Notes: a model not told the origin generated them from the letters alone. DNA of 63,862 bases, filler included, from Reclinomonas americana ATCC 50394 (GCA_048213135.1; 15 parts of 15 records of this genome joined end to end with filler, not necessarily neighbours in it); one strand, 5' to 3'. Shown: positions 46,615 through 53,633, numbered from the whole stretch's first letter. Program-made: numbers and translations.

Positions 46615-47164
46615 CGACGGCCGACGGTCAGCGCATCGTGAGTGGAGATACTGATGACTCAGTGTGTCGGTGGTCACTTTTTGAGTGGAGCTCAAGTGCG
46701 GCAGTTGGAGGGACACACGAGAGCTATGCTCTCTGTCGCTGTCACTGCCGACGGACAACACGTCGTGAGCGGCACTCGTGACTGCACTGTGCGAGTGTGG
46801 TCGCTGGCGAGTGGTGAGGAAGTGCGACGATAATCCGGAGCTATGGATTGCACAGTGCGAGTGTGGTCGATGGCAACTGGGGAGGAAGTGCGCAGGTTGG
46901 AGGGACGCAATTGATGAAGTGCGTCACAGTCGATCAGAGACCTGGTGACTGTAGGTCATGTTTTGTCCACCCTGTGGCCTTGCTTGGTGGGAGCTGGAGT
47001 ATGCGCGTGTGGCCAGGCAGGCTGTACGGGAGATGCAGCAAAAGCGGGCACGGGTGAGCGTTGAGTCTCAGTGCCTGCCAGAGATGGTGCTCCGGTGCTT
47101 CATTGTGGAGGATGCAGACGTGGTGCTGCACCGTTGCTGCATTAATCCCGCGGTGTGCCTGTGA
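46615..47164 (+). pseudogene. Decayed member of the tandem WD40 array (copy 0)
   Basis: WD40 fragments with a frameshift (~46680), in-frame stops (46831, ~46912) and internal deletions; no MTST start; the family tail PCGLAWWELE...CLPEMVLRCFIVED is retained. Confidence 0.88.
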
Positions 47165-47384
47165 CCTGGTGCGGGAAGATGCAGGATGCAAGCAGTTGTG
47201 ATGGTTCCTTGTTCAGCATGAGCATGAAAGCCAGCGCCTGTGCACTTCGATTGAACCAGCGTCGACTTCATGTCACGAAGGACATCCAAATTCCGACCAA
47301 ATCGCTCTCTTCCTCGCTCTCACGAACGCACAGTTGCCTTGTCTCTCTCCCTCTCTCCCTCTCTCTCTCCCTCTCTCTCATCTC

Positions 47385-48470
47385 ATGACCTCCACCACCC
47401 CTCTCTTCGTCTGCAAGTCTCTGCTCAGACACGAGAGTACAACACGGTCTGTGACCTTCACTTCCGATGGCCAGCACATCATCAGTGGAAGTGATGACAG
47501 CAGAATGAGAGTGTGGTCTGTCGCGAGTGGAGAAGAACTCCGACGATTGGAGGGACACACTGGTCCAGTGCACTCTGTCGTCGTCACACCCGATGGCCAA
47601 CACGCTGTGAGTGGCAGCTGGGACCGCACAGTTCGTGTGTGGTCGCTGACGAGTGGAGAAGAAGTACGTCGGTTGGAGGGGCACACAGCTGCTGTGGAGT
47701 ATGTCACCGTCACTTCCGATGGCGGTCATATCGTCAGCGGCGGTTTGTACTGCACAGTTCGAGTGTGGTCACTGGCAAGTAGTCGAAAGCAAGTTCGTGT
47801 GTTAAAGGGATACGAACGCGGAGTGAACTCGCTCGCCGTCACGAGCGATGGCGAGCGCATTGTGAGTGGGGCAATGGACGAGTTCGTGTGCGTGCGGTCA
47901 CTGGAGAGTGGGGAGGAGGTACGACGCTTGAAGGGGCACACCAATGGCGTTCTGTCAGTCGCCGTCACCGTCGATGGGTTGCACGTGGTGAGTGGCGGCA
48001 TGGACTGCACAGTGCGAGTGTGGTCACTGGCGAGTGGAGAAGAGGTGCACCGACTCGAGGGGCACGCGGATTGGGTGTGGTCGGTGGCCGTCGCTCCCGA
48101 TGGTCGCCACGTTGTGAGTGGCTCCATGGACAAGACAGTGCGGGTGTGGTCGATGGAGAGTGGGGATGAAGTGCGCCGATTGGAGGGGCACACTGCAGGC
48201 GTGTGGTCTGTAGCCGTCTCCCCCGATGGTCAGCATATTGTGAGTGGAGGTCGTGACAGAACGGTGCGGGTTTGGTCGACGCCGTGTGGCCTCGCTCGGG
48301 GGGAACTGGAAACGGCGCGAGCAGCCATGCAGGCTGTGCAGCAGATGCAGCGAGAAGGAGAAGAAGATGACTCGCGATGCCTGCCAGAGATGGTGCTCCG
48401 GTGCTTCATTGTGGAGGATGCGGGCGTGGTGCTGCATCGTTCCTTTGTCGATCCCGCGTTGTGCCTGTGA
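47385..48470 (+). CDS. Intronless 7xWD40 protein with conserved C-terminal tail, array copy 1 (361 aa)
   Basis: ATG MTSTTPLF; seven repeats of EEVRRLEGH..V.SVAVTPDG.HIVSG..D.TVRVWSL.SG type; tail ...CLPEMVLRCFIVEDAG. Confidence 0.92.
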   Translation: MTSTTPLFVCKSLLRHESTTRSVTFTSDGQHIISGSDDSRMRVWSVASGEELRRLEGHTGPVHSVVVTPDGQHAVSGSWDRTVRVWSLTSGEEVRRLEGHTAAVEYVTVTSDGGHIVSGGLYCTVRVWSLASSRKQVRVLKGYERGVNSLAVTSDGERIVSGAMDEFVCVRSLESGEEVRRLKGHTNGVLSVAVTVDGLHVVSGGMDCTVRVWSLASGEEVHRLEGHADWVWSVAVAPDGRHVVSGSMDKTVRVWSMESGDEVRRLEGHTAGVWSVAVSPDGQHIVSGGRDRTVRVWSTPCGLARGELETARAAMQAVQQMQREGEEDDSRCLPEMVLRCFIVEDAGVVLHRSFVDPALCL

Positions 48471-48640
48471 TCCGAGGCGTAGGAAGGACAGTGTGCACAA
48501 TTCAGCTGTGTGCCGCAACTCAGTATCGTTGTTGGGTGCAAGTTGCGCTTGTGATCTGAGGCGTGGAAAGAAACAGAGTGCAGAATAAAGCAGTTGGATT
48601 GGTTCCTTGTCGCATGAATACCAGCGCCTGTTCAGCCAGC

Positions 48641-51124: not shown

Positions 51125-51282
51125 GCTGTGGCATGAGAATAGATAATAAAGGCAAGTGAGTAGGAGAAAGACATTGCGATCCTCCATTGTCGACTTCAGC
51201 GTCGCCTGGCGGGCAGGACATCAAACACTCGTCTTCGTCCTCGTCTCTCTCACGCACTCACTTGCCTGCTCCCTCTATTCCA

Positions 51283-52377
51283 ATGACCTCCACTACAGCC
51301 CCTCTCTTCATCTGCAAGACTCTTCTCGGAAACGCAGATGCTGTGCGTTCTGTCGCCATCACTCCCGATGGCCAACACATCATCAGCGGTGGTGATGACA
51401 GGAGAGTGCGAGTGAGGTCCCTCGCGAGTGGAGAAGAAGTACGACGACTGGAGGGACACACTGGCTGGGTGATGGCAGTGGCCGTCACTCCCGATGGTCA
51501 TCACATCATCAGTGGCAACTATGACAGCACAATTCGTGTGTGGTCGCTGGCGAGCGGAGAACAAGTGCGGCAGTTGGAGGGACACACCGCTGCGGTGCAG
51601 AGTGTCGCCGTCACTCCCAATGGTGAGCACATTGTTAGTGGCAGCTGGGACTACACGGTGCGAGTGTGGTCACTGGCGACTGGCAACGAAGTCCTGCGAT
51701 TGGAGGGGCACTTCAATTGGGTGACGTCAGTCGCTGTTACGCCCAATGGTCAGCACATCGTGAGTGGGAGTCAAGACAGTACGGTGCGTGTATGGTCACT
51801 TGCGAGTGGTGCGGAAGAGCTGCGATTGGACACAGGCAGTTGGTATGTGAGGTCAGTCGCCGTCACTCCCGACGGTCGGCACATTGTGGGCGGTAGTCAA
51901 GACAACAGAGTGCGAGTGTTGTCATTGGCGAGTGGAGAAAAGGTGCGGCGGTTGGAGGGACACACCGATTGGGTGTGGTCGGTGGCCGTCACTCACGATG
52001 GTCAGCACGTGGTCAGCGGCGGTACGGACTTCACAGTGCGAGTGTGGTCGATGGAGAGTGGGGAGGAGGTGCAGCGATTAGAGGGGCACACTCAGGGAGT
52101 GCGATCTGTTGCCGTCTCCCCCGATGGTCAGCACGTGGTGAGCGGTGGTCGTGACGGGACGATGCGTGTGTGGTCCACGCCGTGTGGCCTCGCTCGCTGG
52201 GAACTGAAGACGGCGCGAGCAGCGATGCAGGATGTGCAGGAGATGCAGCGAGAAGGAGAAGAGGATGAGGAACGAGACTCGCGATGCCTGCCAGAGATGG
52301 TGCTGCGGTGTTTCATCGTGGAGGAGGCAGGAGTGGTACTGCATCGTTGCTGCGTGGATCCCTCGTTGCGCCTGTGA
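51283..52377 (+). CDS. Intronless 7xWD40 protein with conserved C-terminal tail, array copy 4 (364 aa)
   Basis: MTSTTAPLF start; seven repeats; same tail; AATAAA just downstream (~52398). Confidence 0.92.
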   Translation: MTSTTAPLFICKTLLGNADAVRSVAITPDGQHIISGGDDRRVRVRSLASGEEVRRLEGHTGWVMAVAVTPDGHHIISGNYDSTIRVWSLASGEQVRQLEGHTAAVQSVAVTPNGEHIVSGSWDYTVRVWSLATGNEVLRLEGHFNWVTSVAVTPNGQHIVSGSQDSTVRVWSLASGAEELRLDTGSWYVRSVAVTPDGRHIVGGSQDNRVRVLSLASGEKVRRLEGHTDWVWSVAVTHDGQHVVSGGTDFTVRVWSMESGEEVQRLEGHTQGVRSVAVSPDGQHVVSGGRDGTMRVWSTPCGLARWELKTARAAMQDVQEMQREGEEDEERDSRCLPEMVLRCFIVEEAGVVLHRCCVDPSLRL

Positions 52378-52538
52378 GTTGTGTCACGAGAGTAGACAAT
52401 AAAGGCAAGTGAGTAGGAGAAAGACAGCGCGATCCTCCATTGTCGACTTCAGTGTCGCCTGGCGGGCAGGACATCAAACACTCTCAGTCTTCGTCCTCGT
52501 CTCTCTCACGCACTCACTTACCTGCTCTCTCTATTCCA

Positions 52539-53633
52539 ATGACCTCCACTACAGCCCCTCTCTTCATCTGCAAGACTCTGCTCCAGAACACTGGTGCGGT
52601 GCGGTCTCTGACCGTCACTGCCGATGGCCAACACATCGTCAGCGGTGGTGATGACAGGAGAGTGCGAGTGTGGTCCCTCGCGAGTGGAGAAGAAGTACGA
52701 CGACTGGAGGGACACACTGGCTGGGTGATGGCAGTGGCCGTCACTCCCGATGGTCATCACATTGTCAGCGGCAGTCGGGACTGCAATGTGCGTGTGTGGT
52801 CACTGGCGAGCGGAGAGGAGGTACGCCGATTGGAGGGACACACTGCTGCGGTGCAGAGTGTCACCGTCACTCCCGATGGCCAGCACGTTGTTAGTGACAG
52901 CAGTGGCTACACTGTGCGAGTGTGGCAACTGGCGACTGGCAACGAAGTCCAGCGATTGGAGGGGCACTCCAATTGGGTGACGTCAGTCGCTGTCACACCC
53001 GATGGGCTTCACGTTGTGAGTGGAAGTCAAGACAATACGGTGCGCGTGTGGTCGCTGGCGAGTGGTGCGGAAGAGCTGCGAGTGGGCACAGGCACTTGGT
53101 ACGCGAGGTCCGTCGCCGTCACTCCCGACGGTCGGCACATTGTGGGCGGCAGTCAGGACAGCAGAGTGCGAGTGTGGTCACTGGCGAGCGGAGACGAAGT
53201 GAGACGACTGGAGGGACACACTCAAGAGGTGAACTCTGTCGCCGTCACCCCCGATAATCGGTTCATCGTGAGCGGAGCCATGGACTGCACAGTACGCGTG
53301 TGGTCACTGACAACGGGGGAGGAGGTGCAGCGCTTAGAGGGGCACACTGAGGGAGTGCGGTCTGTAGCCGTCTCCCCCGACGGGCAGCACGTGGTGAGCG
53401 GTGGTCGTGACGGGACGATGCGTGTGTGGTCCACGCCGACCGGCCTCGCTCGGCGTGAACTGGAGAGTGCGCGTGCGGCCATGCAGTCTGTGCAGGGGAT
53501 GCAGCGACACGGAAAAGAAGATGAGGAGCTGGACTCGCGATGCCTGCCGGAGATGGTGCTGCGGTGCTTCATCGTGGAGGAGGCGGGCGTGGTGCTTTAT
53601 CGTTGTCAGGTGAATGCCGAGTTGCGCATTTGA
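52539..53633 (+). CDS. Intronless 7xWD40 protein with conserved C-terminal tail, array copy 5 (364 aa)
   Basis: Closest paralogue of copy 4; same tail; AATAAA at ~53663. Confidence 0.92.
   Translation: MTSTTAPLFICKTLLQNTGAVRSLTVTADGQHIVSGGDDRRVRVWSLASGEEVRRLEGHTGWVMAVAVTPDGHHIVSGSRDCNVRVWSLASGEEVRRLEGHTAAVQSVTVTPDGQHVVSDSSGYTVRVWQLATGNEVQRLEGHSNWVTSVAVTPDGLHVVSGSQDNTVRVWSLASGAEELRVGTGTWYARSVAVTPDGRHIVGGSQDSRVRVWSLASGDEVRRLEGHTQEVNSVAVTPDNRFIVSGAMDCTVRVWSLTTGEEVQRLEGHTEGVRSVAVSPDGQHVVSGGRDGTMRVWSTPTGLARRELESARAAMQSVQGMQRHGKEDEELDSRCLPEMVLRCFIVEEAGVVLYRCQVNAELRI

What the first reader, a model, noticed from the sequence alone, without database searches (positions are those of the whole stretch)
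46615..53633. Tandem array of intronless WD40 propellers with variable binding face and constant tail: candidate diversifying receptor/adaptor system
Seen: five intact and one decayed head-to-tail genes. Each intact gene has exactly 7 WD40 repeats plus a ~65-aa tail, with only ~160-280 bp between genes and no introns, in a genome where neighbouring genes are heavily interrupted. The repeat scaffold (EEVRRLEGH, VAVTPDG, IVSG, TVRVWSL.SG) is near-identical within and between genes while a few positions vary widely. Established: this pattern of high internal repeat identity plus hypervariable sites characterises Podospora HET-E/HNWD nonself receptors. Inference: a variable-domain plus constant-domain repertoire of stand-alone propellers with no NACHT, used for nonself or pathogen-protein recognition. 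I do not recognise this family.
Basis: partly seen in the sequence, partly recalled or inferred. Interest (0 to 1): 0.9.

Follow-up and report, generated by a model that had tools for sequence, protein, structure and literature searches.

The report
Tandem WD40 propeller genes, novel tail
Five side-by-side genes in a protist genome each encode a seven-bladed WD40 protein-binding ring whose binding surface differs between copies while an unrecognised 65-residue tail stays constant, which points to a small adaptor family but does not prove an immune role.

Summary
Window 46615-53633 holds one decayed and five intact head-to-tail genes (361-367 aa). Each is an uninterrupted ORF with 7 WD40 blades plus a 64-67-aa C-terminal tail. 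Spacers are 158-281 bp.

Variation is concentrated at six repeat positions that flank the conserved Val8 and Asp26. These are the same places as the selected codons of Podospora HNWD genes.

The HET-E analogy is only partly supported:
- Repeats within a gene are 57% identical on average (maximum 79%), below the 85% criterion.
- Repeats are not homogenised within genes.
- Evidence for omega above 1 depends on the model.

The tail is the more unusual part:
- It matches no Pfam family, PDB sequence or specific fold.
- Only three credible relatives appear among 1.84 billion representative proteins. One is a Reclinomonas americana EST.
- It is kept uniform by purifying selection and gene conversion.

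Best reading: a lineage-specific adaptor family with diversified binding faces and a shared docking or oligomerising tail. An immune-receptor role is unproven.

The parts
46566..47164 (+). Decayed family member (pseudogene). About 2.5 WD40 repeats with stops, a deletion and a frameshift. The tail frame 46958-47161 is still open; stop at 47162-47164.
   Evidence: tblastn of g1/g4 and three-frame translation; tail alignment, 54% identity to the g5 tail
47385..48470 (+). g1: 361-aa protein with 7 WD40 blades and a 64-aa tail (tail 48276-48467)
   Evidence: ORF; Pfam WD40, 7 stretches; 7 anchors; tail alignment
48752..49837 (+). g2: 361-aa protein with 7 WD40 blades and a 67-aa tail (tail 49634-49834). 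A longer ORF from 48614 is not conserved.
   Evidence: conserved start ATGACCTCCAC
50021..51124 (+). g3: 367-aa protein with 7 blades and a 67-aa tail (tail 50921-51121). The first repeat is degenerate and Pfam sees 6 repeats.
   Evidence: g3r1 is at most 52% identical at nucleotide level to any other repeat
51283..52377 (+). g4: 364-aa protein with 7 blades and a 67-aa tail (tail 52174-52374). This is the gene that was modelled.
   Evidence: AlphaFold2 pLDDT 88.4, 28 strands, helices 300-324 and 335-358
52539..53633 (+). g5: 364-aa protein with 7 blades and a 67-aa tail (tail 53430-53630). It is the most divergent intact tail.
47262..47384 (+). Example of the conserved spacer core upstream of each gene. 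TCGACTTCA is present in 4 of 5 spacers. AGGACATC[CA]A is present in 5 of 5, lying 68-106 nt before the ATG, and is followed by a C/T-rich tract that runs up to the ATG. It is a putative promoter or 5' UTR element. The other copies of the 10-mer are at 48672, 49938, 51215 and 52468.
   Evidence: unit alignment; motif positions

Best explanation
This is a lineage-specific family of small cytosolic adaptor proteins, made by tandem duplication of a unit of about 1.25-1.37 kb (spacer plus gene). Each protein is a closed seven-bladed WD40 propeller. The N-terminal 13 residues supply the closing strand. After the propeller comes a helix, an acidic linker and a second hydrophobic helix, which together form the tail.

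The paralogues have diverged mostly at the six repeat positions that form the top (ligand-binding) face, so each copy probably binds a different peptide or protein. The tail is held constant by purifying selection and by gene conversion between array members, so all copies probably dock to the same partner or oligomerise in the same way.

Shown here: the anatomy, the fold of the propeller, the concentration of variation, constraint on scaffold and tail, mosaic conversion, and the rarity of the tail. Inferred: ligand diversity, the docking or oligomerising role of the tail, and cytosolic location (no signal-like N-terminus was seen when reading the sequences).
For: Anatomy and fold. Foldseek places the propeller next to consensus-like WD40 domains (5yzv, 42% identity, TM 0.97 of target; 7big; 2ymu; WDR5) and leaves the tail unmatched.

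Variation is concentrated at unit positions 6, 7, 9, 18, 25 and 27. Identity at these positions is 4-14 of 42 between most genes, against 68-75% for the scaffold.

Selection:
- Scaffold omega is 0.18-0.29 in 10 of 10 pairs and tail omega is 0.13-0.52.
- 22 of 42 repeat columns are significantly purifying.
- The N:S ratio at hypervariable codons is 4 times that of the scaffold (Fisher P=0.005 and 1e-5).

Tail homogenisation:
- Tail nucleotide identity is 81-94%, against 66-74% for the propeller and 55-67% for the spacer, in 9 of 10 pairs.
- The tail cores of u2, u3 and u4 are 96-98% identical.
- u1 and u2 are 87-95% identical from repeat 6 onward.
- u4 and u5 drop to 68% at repeat 6.
- Tail dS is 0.18-0.47 against scaffold dS 0.33-1.24.

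The architecture is older than the array. Two distant full-length relatives (P0123, P0124; 22-30% identity end to end) keep the tail on diverged propellers. A Reclinomonas americana EST product (P0121) is 65-70% identical over the last repeat plus tail and ends where these proteins end.
Against: No ligand, partner or expression datum exists for these five genes themselves. The tail model is only moderately confident (pLDDT 60-76 in the full protein, 72.5 alone), and its fold matches only generic alpha-hairpins. Its core MVLRCFIVEEAG is hydrophobic and not amphipathic, so the helix prediction may be wrong. Variation at top-face positions is what any relaxed surface would show; omega there is about 0.8 by counting methods. 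g3 has a degenerate first repeat, and several blades have lost the conserved Asp or Trp, which may mean that some copies are decaying.
Confidence: 0.55

Rival explanations
1. First reader's reading. The array is a diversifying nonself or pathogen-recognition repertoire that works like the WD40 domains of Podospora HET-E/HNWD. Repeats are shuffled, top-face codons are under positive diversifying selection, and the constant tail signals.
For: The variable positions are the same ones as in HNWD: 7, 9, 25 and 27 flanking conserved 8 and 26. Some repeats are shuffled between positions: g1r2 and g2r5 are 80% identical, g3r2 matches the repeat-6 group at 79%, and g3r4 and g5r2 are 80% identical. With branch lengths shared with the scaffold, maximum likelihood gives omega 1.5-1.9 at these codons (likelihood-ratio test against 1, P=0.0004-0.004). 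This holds both for the post hoc six positions and for the a priori four HNWD positions. Columns flanking the Asp have omega 2.1 and 1.4 by site counting. A pentapeptide+WD40 gene preceded by a P-loop motif (GSGKST) lies elsewhere in the window.
Against: Internal repeat identity is 57% on average and 79% at most, below the 85% criterion. Within-gene nucleotide identity (64.5%) is no higher than between genes (63.8% at a different index, 70.8% at the same index), so repeats show no concerted evolution. Repeat number is 7 in 5 of 5 genes. When the variable codons get their own rate (r=1.8-2.35), omega falls to 0.73-0.86 and is not significant. 0 of 42 columns are significant for positive selection. 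Paralogues are old (dS 0.33-1.24). No NACHT or other effector domain is present. There are no population data.
Confidence: 0.15
2. The proteins are substrate receptors of a cullin-RING ubiquitin ligase. The tail would be a degenerate F-box-, SOCS-box- or H-box-like helical adaptor motif placed C-terminally, and the propellers would select different substrates.
For: The architecture of a WD40 propeller plus a short helical C-terminal module parallels WD40-SOCS-box proteins. The invariant LPEMVLRCF resembles the opening of the F-box consensus. Both comparisons are recalled from memory and come from no call. The tail is predicted as two helices. Expanded, fast-evolving receptor families of this kind are known (recalled).
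Against: No Pfam family of any kind matches 3 of 3 tails at E up to 10. The profile against PDB sequences gives one chance hit at E=1.6. No F-box or SOCS-box entry is among the rows shown by Foldseek or VIA-align (this is inconclusive for such a small helical unit). The WDx[RK] motif of DDB1-binding WD40 proteins is present in 0 of 5 proteins (consensus recalled).
Confidence: 0.12
3. The array is a dosage array or a drifting redundant family. The copies do the same job through a conserved surface or the tail, and top-face differences are neutral drift at unconstrained positions, with some copies on the way to pseudogenes.
For: Omega at variable codons is about 0.8 with confidence intervals spanning 1 (0.26-2.66 and 0.33-1.84). 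There is one clear pseudogene and a degenerate repeat 1 in g3. Conserved Asp or Trp is lost in some blades.
Against: Scaffold omega of 0.18-0.29 and tail omega of 0.13-0.52 show that all five are kept under selection. The top faces are almost unrelated (4-14 of 42 identical) and rich in Arg, Gln and Trp (27, 23 and 23 of 210 residues). That composition fits binding surfaces rather than indifferent loops (inference).
Confidence: 0.15

Closest known systems
WD40 domains of Podospora anserina HET-E/HET-D/HET-R (HNWD/NWD family of fungal NLR-like STAND proteins)
   Same: Both have 42-residue, consensus-like WD40 units with variation focused on the two codon pairs that flank conserved positions 8 and 26 on the top face. 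Both are multi-gene families with some exchange of repeats between members.
   Different: There is no HET or NACHT part. Repeats are 57% identical within a gene, not about 85-100%. Repeat number is fixed at 7. Repeats show no concerted evolution. Positive selection is not robustly shown. A C-terminal tail is present that HNWD proteins are not described as having.
Consensus-like 'highly repetitive' WD40 propellers of bacteria: Thermomonospora curvata WD40 domain (PDB 5yzv) and the Nostoc propeller (PDB 2ymu); also the designed WRAP-T (7big)
   Same: These are the best structural and sequence matches to the propeller: 37-42% identity, TM 0.97 of the target for 5yzv and 7big, rmsd 0.8-1.5 A. The best database proteins by sequence are mostly unnamed or metagenome-derived 'WD40 repeat protein' entries, with a few named records (an Anaerolineae bacterium, Nostoc, the fungus Paxillus), at up to 59% identity over 65-90% of the query.
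   Different: Those are domains of larger proteins or designs. None of them carries the tail: the tail searches find it only in P0121, P0123 and P0124. Here the proteins are eukaryotic, stand-alone and tandemly arrayed.
WD40 substrate receptors of cullin-RING ligases (F-box/WD40, WD40/SOCS-box such as WSB1, DDB1-binding DWD proteins). Recalled from general knowledge.
   Same: The logic is the same: a variable propeller plus a short constant helical docking module, in gene families that expand.
   Different: No sequence or fold evidence shows that the tail is an F-box, SOCS box or H-box. There is no WDx[RK] motif.
Gcp1-Gcp3, Pex7-like WD40 proteins that co-occur with the mitochondrial T2SS in jakobids, heteroloboseans and malawimonads (Nat Commun 2021, PMC8134430 / bioRxiv 10.1101/790865)
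   Same: They are WD40 proteins restricted to a set of protists that includes Reclinomonas americana (passages).
   Different: They are described as Pex7-like, often with a PTS1 signal, and conserved across several lineages. [quoted passage not shown] The tail profile found only 3 credible relatives in 1.84 billion representatives. The C-termini here are LCL, LRL or LRI, which do not fit the PTS1 consensus as I recall it.

Membership tests
WD40 repeat beta-propeller superfamily | Repeated ~40-residue WD40 units recognised by the family profile | tested here: met
   PF00400: E 1e-63 to 7e-76, 7 stretches in 4 genes and 6 in g3; 7 anchors in 5 of 5 genes
WD40 repeat beta-propeller superfamily | Closed seven-bladed propeller fold | tested here: met
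   AlphaFold2 of g4: 28 strands, pLDDT above 90 over the propeller. Foldseek to 5yzv: E 1e-36, TM 0.97 of target. This is a prediction, not a solved structure.
HNWD / HET-E type fungal NLR WD40 domain | N-terminal effector (HET) and NACHT NTPase domains on the same polypeptide | tested here: not met
   The ORFs begin 13 residues before blade 1. Only WD40-type Pfam families are among the best 25 listed of 46-54 hits per protein.
HNWD / HET-E type fungal NLR WD40 domain | High internal repeat conservation: about 85% amino-acid identity or more over at least 100 aa (PMC4986451, passages) | tested here: not met
   Within-gene repeat identity is 57% on average and 79% at most (105 pairs); criterion read
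HNWD / HET-E type fungal NLR WD40 domain | Concerted evolution of repeats within and between genes, with variable repeat number | tested here: not met
   Nucleotide identity is 64.5% within genes, against 70.8% at the same index and 63.8% at other indices between genes. Repeats 1, 6 and 7 cluster by position. There are 7 repeats in 5 of 5 genes. Polymorphism among isolates is not testable here.
HNWD / HET-E type fungal NLR WD40 domain | Hypervariability at codons 7, 9, 25 and 27 on the top face | tested here: met
   Entropy is 2.6-3.4 bits at unit positions 7, 9, 25 and 27, and also high at 6 and 18. Positions 8 (Val, 86%) and 26 (Asp, 94%) are conserved. The register relative to HNWD is inferred from the conserved 8/26 pattern.
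HNWD / HET-E type fungal NLR WD40 domain | Positive diversifying selection (dN/dS above 1) at those codons | tested here: inconclusive
   Nei-Gojobori omega is 0.77-1.22 in the 6 of 10 pairs that are not saturated. Bootstrap confidence intervals span 1. 0 of 42 columns are significant. The maximum-likelihood partition model gives omega 1.5-1.9 (P=0.0004-0.004) with shared branch lengths, but 0.73-0.86 (not significant) with its own rate.
F-box or SOCS-box substrate receptors | Tail recognised by an F-box or SOCS-box sequence profile | tested here: not met
   0 Pfam families of any kind for 3 of 3 tails at E up to 10; HMMER's filters drop most very weak matches
F-box or SOCS-box substrate receptors | Three-helix F-box or SOCS-box fold | tested here: inconclusive
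   The tail model is a two-helix hairpin at pLDDT 72.5. Foldseek gives 0 matches at E up to 0.001. The best VIA-align Z is 7.6, with generic hairpins.
DDB1-binding WD40 (DWD/DCAF) | WDx[RK] motif ending a repeat (consensus recalled) | tested here: not met
   0 matches in 5 of 5 proteins; repeats end in VWS[LMT]
Gcp1-3 (Pex7-like WD40 of protists with a mitochondrial T2SS) | Sequence identity with published Gcp1-3 proteins | tested here: inconclusive
   The motifs LRCFIVE, VLRCF and VRVWSL are absent from the 6 supplementary files of PMC8134430 held as text. I did not verify that those files hold all Gcp sequences.

The most novel reading that the evidence does not exclude
A discobid (jakobid-like) protist carries a previously undescribed recognition module. 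It consists of stand-alone seven-bladed WD40 'receptors' whose top faces diversify under selection, all wired through a new C-terminal domain that gene conversion keeps constant. That domain would couple them to one downstream machine. This would be an NLR-independent, variable-plus-constant repertoire for nonself or substrate recognition.
Probability: 0.15. Interest if true: 0.75.

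Novelty: new variant of a known kind. Interest (0 to 1): 0.45.

Why it matters
WD40 propellers with consensus-like repeats and hypervariable top faces are so far tied to STAND/NLR proteins of fungi and bacteria. Finding the same pattern of variation in stand-alone, tandemly duplicated genes of a deep-branching protist would widen where such modules occur. 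These genes are joined to a conserved tail with no recognisable family and almost no relatives in very large protein collections. That gives a small, tractable system of five paralogues and one constant module for asking how a propeller family diversifies its binding face.

As it stands, the finding is a well-documented lineage-specific gene family with a new tail domain. It is not a demonstrated immune system.

Tried and rejected
- Whole-genome copy count: no genome is held for this window, so copies outside the window are unknown. Within the window, tblastn finds the tail only in the six array units.
- Sequencing runs: none was listed for 51160-53700, and no RNA holder was listed.
There is no result of any kind.
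- Tail searches that found nothing:
  - word-indexed search of proteins of 200-637 aa;
  - ESM Atlas by features;
  - IMG/VR scan, 0 relatives among 40 pattern matches;
  - prokaryotic genome scan, 0 among 31.
- JGI metagenome scan: 1 of 91 pattern matches passed (L001). It is a 16-residue match inside a 582-aa bacterial-type ORF and I rejected it as chance.
- P0122 (111 aa): four 19-residue repeats TLRCSIVEPTGVIFLTPTM scored E=2e-6 against the tail profile. I treat it as doubtful, because the score is summed over short repeats.
- PDB sequence search: one hit at E=1.6 (SART3), rejected.
- Pfam on the P-loop-bearing ORFs at 279-3334: no NACHT or other family at E up to 5. The idea that a NACHT-WD40 gene lies in the window therefore rests only on motifs that I recognise from memory.
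- Literature:
  - 'HNWD / WD40 / concerted evolution / positive selection' gave the fungal papers.
  - 'Reclinomonas americana / nuclear genome / WD40' and 'jakobid / WD40 / gene family expansion' gave no description of this family.
  - I read only listings and passages, not whole papers.
  - bioRxiv supplements are closed. The supplements of PMC8134430 were searched for three motifs only.

Full report
WHAT IS THERE

The window is not one continuous stretch. It is 15 short contigs joined by 14 linkers of N44+TTAATTAATTAA+N44. The array lies wholly on the contig 46098-55062.

On the + strand there are five intact ORFs. All start with the same ATGACCTCCAC (MTST...), which occurs only at these five places on the + strand:
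- g1 47385-48470
- g2 48752-49837
- g3 50021-51124
- g4 51283-52377
- g5 52539-53633

The products are 361-367 aa long. Stop-to-ATG spacers are 158-281 bp.

Upstream, at 46566-47164, is a decayed copy. It has about 2.5 WD40 repeats with in-frame stops, a 20-residue deletion and a frameshift, yet its tail frame (46958-47161) is still open. Non-family sequence lies before the decayed copy, and a non-coding tandem repeat of about 420-430 bp follows g5. The array is therefore complete at six units on this contig. A tblastn of the tail finds no further copy in the window. No whole genome is held, so copies elsewhere cannot be counted.

THE PROTEINS

Pfam recognises only WD40-type families: 7 WD40 stretches in four genes and 6 in g3. 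The strand-C motif occurs exactly 7 times in each of the five genes.

AlphaFold2 of g4, run with an 8-row alignment, gives 28 strands, that is seven four-stranded blades, at pLDDT mostly above 90. Two helices follow (300-324 and 335-358) at pLDDT 60-76. The tail folded alone is again a helix-loop-helix, at pLDDT 72.5.

The N-terminal 13 residues (PLFICKTLLGH) take the place of the EEVRRLEGH strand. The ring therefore appears to be closed in the usual 'velcro' manner; this is my inference from the alignment.

Foldseek puts the propeller next to consensus-like WD40 domains. The best is Thermomonospora 5yzv (42% identity, TM 0.97 of the target, rmsd 0.8 A), followed by the designed WRAP-T 7big, Nostoc 2ymu, then LIS1 and WDR5. 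For these close matches the alignments stop at roughly 285-303 columns, that is before the tail.

By sequence, 2656 of 8000 scored candidates match at E up to 1e-3. The best 120 are 29-59% identical over 65-90% of the query. The five exact sequences are not in the 15-billion-protein collection.

PATTERN OF VARIATION

I cut the genes into 35 repeats and aligned them.
- Scaffold columns are strongly conserved: V34 100%; D, R and G 94%; W 89%.
- Six columns have 2.3-3.4 bits of entropy. Counted from the L of LEGH, these are positions 6, 7, 9, 18, 25 and 27.
- Positions 7/9 flank the conserved Val8, and 25/27 flank the conserved Asp26.

Paoletti et al. 2007 (PMC1805685, passages read) and Chevanne et al. 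2010 (PMC2873952, passages) report codons 7, 9, 25 and 27 of the HNWD repeats as positively selected. These flank conserved 8 and 26 and lie on the top interaction surface. The coincidence is exact if the registers agree, which I infer from the 8/26 pattern. I had no HET-E sequence to align.

Between genes, residues at the 42 hypervariable sites are identical at only 4-14 sites (27 for the youngest pair, g4-g5). The scaffold is 68-75% identical (84% for g4-g5). The variable sites are rich in Arg, Gln and Trp.

HOW FAR THE HET-E/HNWD ANALOGY HOLDS

The defining trait of that class is high internal repeat conservation: 'up to 100% identity', or about 85% at protein level with a working threshold of 85% over at least 100 aa (Dyrka et al. 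2014, PMC4986451, passages). Ordinary WD proteins are said to show only 10-20%.

Identity between repeats here:

| Comparison | Pairs | Protein identity | Nucleotide identity |
|---|---|---|---|
| Within a gene | 105 | mean 57% (12-79%) | 64.5% (max 76%) |
| Between genes, same index | 70 | mean 65% (29-93%) | 70.8% (max 91%) |
| Between genes, different index | 420 | mean 57% (20-81%) | 63.8% |

These repeats are thus unusually consensus-like, but they fail the criterion, and they are not homogenised within genes. Repeats 1, 6 and 7 cluster by position, and g4 and g5 are collinear. A few repeats sit at shifted positions (g1r2 and g2r5 80%, g3r2 and the repeat-6 group 79%, g3r4 and g5r2 80%). 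That points to occasional exchange rather than ongoing concerted evolution. Repeat number is 7 in all five genes.

SELECTION

Nei-Gojobori estimates on the 10 gene pairs:
- scaffold omega 0.18-0.29
- tail omega 0.13-0.52
- hypervariable codons omega 0.77-1.22 in 6 pairs; the other 4 are saturated at synonymous sites

Bootstraps for the two youngest pairs:
- g4-g5: hypervariable omega 0.78 (0.26-2.66)
- g1-g2: hypervariable omega 0.84 (0.33-1.84)
- scaffold: 0.28 and 0.21
- the N:S ratio is four times higher at variable codons (Fisher P=0.005 and 1e-5)

A parsimony site-count on the 35-repeat tree finds 22 of 42 columns significantly purifying and 0 of 42 significantly positive. The two columns flanking Asp26 have omega 2.1 and 1.4 (P=0.23 and 0.24).

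I also wrote a two-partition maximum-likelihood codon model. Its result depends on one assumption.
- If the variable codons share branch lengths with the scaffold, omega is 1.5-1.9, and omega=1 is rejected (P=0.0004-0.004). This holds for the post hoc six positions and for the four a priori HNWD positions.
- If the variable codons are given their own rate (estimated at 1.8-2.35 times the scaffold rate), omega drops to 0.73-0.86 and is not significant.

Three things follow. Selection is clearly not uniform along the repeat. The top face evolves at least neutrally. Positive selection is neither shown nor excluded. Gene conversion, saturation (dS up to 1.2) and the small sample all weaken these tests.

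THE TAIL

The tail is the part that sets the family apart. Six copies align without ambiguity, with 31 of 67 columns invariant and the core CLPEMVLRCFIVE[ED]A.VVL.R.

Searches for anything related:
- No Pfam family at E up to 10 for 3 of 3 tails.
- One chance PDB sequence match at E=1.6.
- No usable Atlas hit.
- No Foldseek match at E up to 0.001, only alpha-hairpins of MexA/AcrA type at E about 0.5.
- Best VIA-align Z is 7.6, with generic hairpins.

A profile of the six tails was run against 1.84 billion representative proteins and returned four hits.
- P0121 (E 6e-27) is a 116-aa product of a Reclinomonas americana EST in EukProt. It is 65-70% identical to the last repeat plus tail of all five genes and ends at the same point.
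- P0123 (394 aa) and P0124 (381 aa) come from unnamed assemblies. They align end to end at 22-30% identity and carry the tail on much more diverged propellers.
- P0122 is a doubtful short-repeat protein.

Scans of viral contigs, prokaryotic genomes and JGI metagenomes added nothing credible.

The propeller+tail architecture therefore predates this array, is transcribed in at least one jakobid, and is very rare in public data. The R. americana match is the only clue to the window's origin. I take it to be a jakobid or a related protist; this is inference only.

ARRAY DYNAMICS

I aligned the five units, spacer plus gene.
- In 9 of 10 pairs, nucleotide identity is highest in the tail (81-94%), lower in the propeller (66-74%) and lowest in the spacer (55-67%).
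- The pair u4-u5 shows the reverse order (94% spacer, 86% propeller, 81% tail).
- In sliding windows, the tail cores of u2, u3 and u4 are 96-98% identical while their propellers are 62-75% identical.
- u1 and u2 are 87-95% identical from repeat 6 to the end, but 60-70% before it.
- u4 and u5 fall from above 90% to 68% at repeat 6.
- Tail dS (0.18-0.47) is below scaffold dS (0.62-1.24) in 9 of 10 pairs; g4-g5 (scaffold dS 0.33) is the exception.

Selection on the protein cannot hold synonymous sites constant. The tail, and often the last repeats, must therefore be homogenised by gene conversion while the rest of the propeller diverges.

The spacers keep a core. AGGACATC[CA]A is found once before each of the 5 genes, 68-106 nt upstream of the ATG. 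TCGACTTCA is found in 4 of 5 spacers. A C/T-rich tract then runs up to the ATG, with no AG in between in the spacers I read. It is a plausible promoter or 5' UTR element, untested.

INTRONS AND CONTEXT

Each family gene is one open frame. In the other WD40 gene of the window (ORF blocks at 3725-5407, 5842-6381 and 6477-7226), a GT...AG interval from about 5310 to 5923 joins VVSASR to DRTVRLWS and restores a perfect repeat. Introns therefore exist in this genome and even in a WD40 gene.

That gene has pentapeptide repeats before at least 9 WD40 repeats. It is preceded, across assembly gaps, by ORFs with a P-loop (GSGKST) and by motifs that remind me of NACHT NTPases. Pfam does not confirm this. 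Its repeats are 33-47% identical to the array's in the longer tblastn alignments and its GC3 is 0.82, against 0.63-0.67 for the array. It is therefore not a close source of the array.

INTERPRETATION

The best-supported account is a lineage-specific adaptor family. The propellers were duplicated in tandem, their top faces have diverged to near-unrelatedness, and a constant tail is protected by both selection and conversion. The tail presumably docks all members to one partner or drives the same self-association.

I rate this account at 0.55. The alternatives are:
- a cullin-RING substrate-receptor reading, 0.12, prompted by the LPEMVLRCF motif and the architecture, both recalled, and not supported by any search;
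- redundant or drifting copies, 0.15.

What would decide between them is listed under next steps. The one in-session test of tail self-association could not be run because the tool's queue stayed full.

VERDICT

It is a new variant of a known kind, a WD40 family expansion with an HNWD-like pattern of variable positions, that carries a tail domain with no known relatives. Interest is moderate.

Noticed in passing
window 1-63862; gaps listed, for example 45998-46097 and 55063-55162: The window is a chain of 15 short contigs joined by 14 identical linkers (N44 + TTAATTAATTAA + N44). Order and adjacency of the contigs are therefore not established.
   Followed up: yes
window about 1065-1300, 2028-3334 and 3725-7226 (+): A large, intron-bearing gene or gene fragments. 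It holds a P-loop (GWSGSGKST), stretches that look NACHT-like to me (LLVTS..., FQHRSFMEYFAA), a pentapeptide-repeat stretch (Pfam E 7e-7) and at least 9 WD40 repeats. It is possibly a STAND NTPase with WD40 sensor repeats. Pfam gave no NACHT hit at E up to 5.
   Followed up: partly
window 5310-5923 (+): A GT-AG intron of about 614 nt, purine-rich and of low complexity, inside a WD40 repeat of that gene. Splicing restores VVSASRDRTVRLWS.
   Followed up: yes
window 53640-54760 (+): Three copies of a non-coding tandem repeat of about 416-433 bp lie directly downstream of g5 (CTCGACCTCTGCAGC at 53695, 54111 and 54544). GT/GA microsatellites follow at 54780-55000.
   Followed up: partly
window 47279, 48672, 49938, 51215, 52468 (+): The 10-mer AGGACATC[CA]A occurs once before each intact gene, 68-106 nt upstream of the ATG, and nowhere else on the + strand. 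A C/T-rich tract follows. It is a candidate promoter or transcription-start element.
   Followed up: partly
protein P0122 (111 aa, unnamed ENA record): Four tandem 19-residue repeats TLRCSIVEPTGVIFLTPTM resemble the tail core VLRCFIVEEAGVVLHR (profile E 2e-6, summed over 4 stretches). This may be chance or a sign that the core motif is a modular unit. The genomic context could not be fetched.
   Followed up: no
window 7627-9801 (-): A 725-aa open frame with several copies of a motif of about 35 residues (...LAEH...L..DRQRREF...PLAQ...). No Pfam family at E up to 1e-3.
   Followed up: no
window 47385-53633 compared with 4085-5305: GC3 of the five array genes is 0.63-0.67, clearly below the 0.82 of the other WD40 gene in the window.
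   Followed up: no
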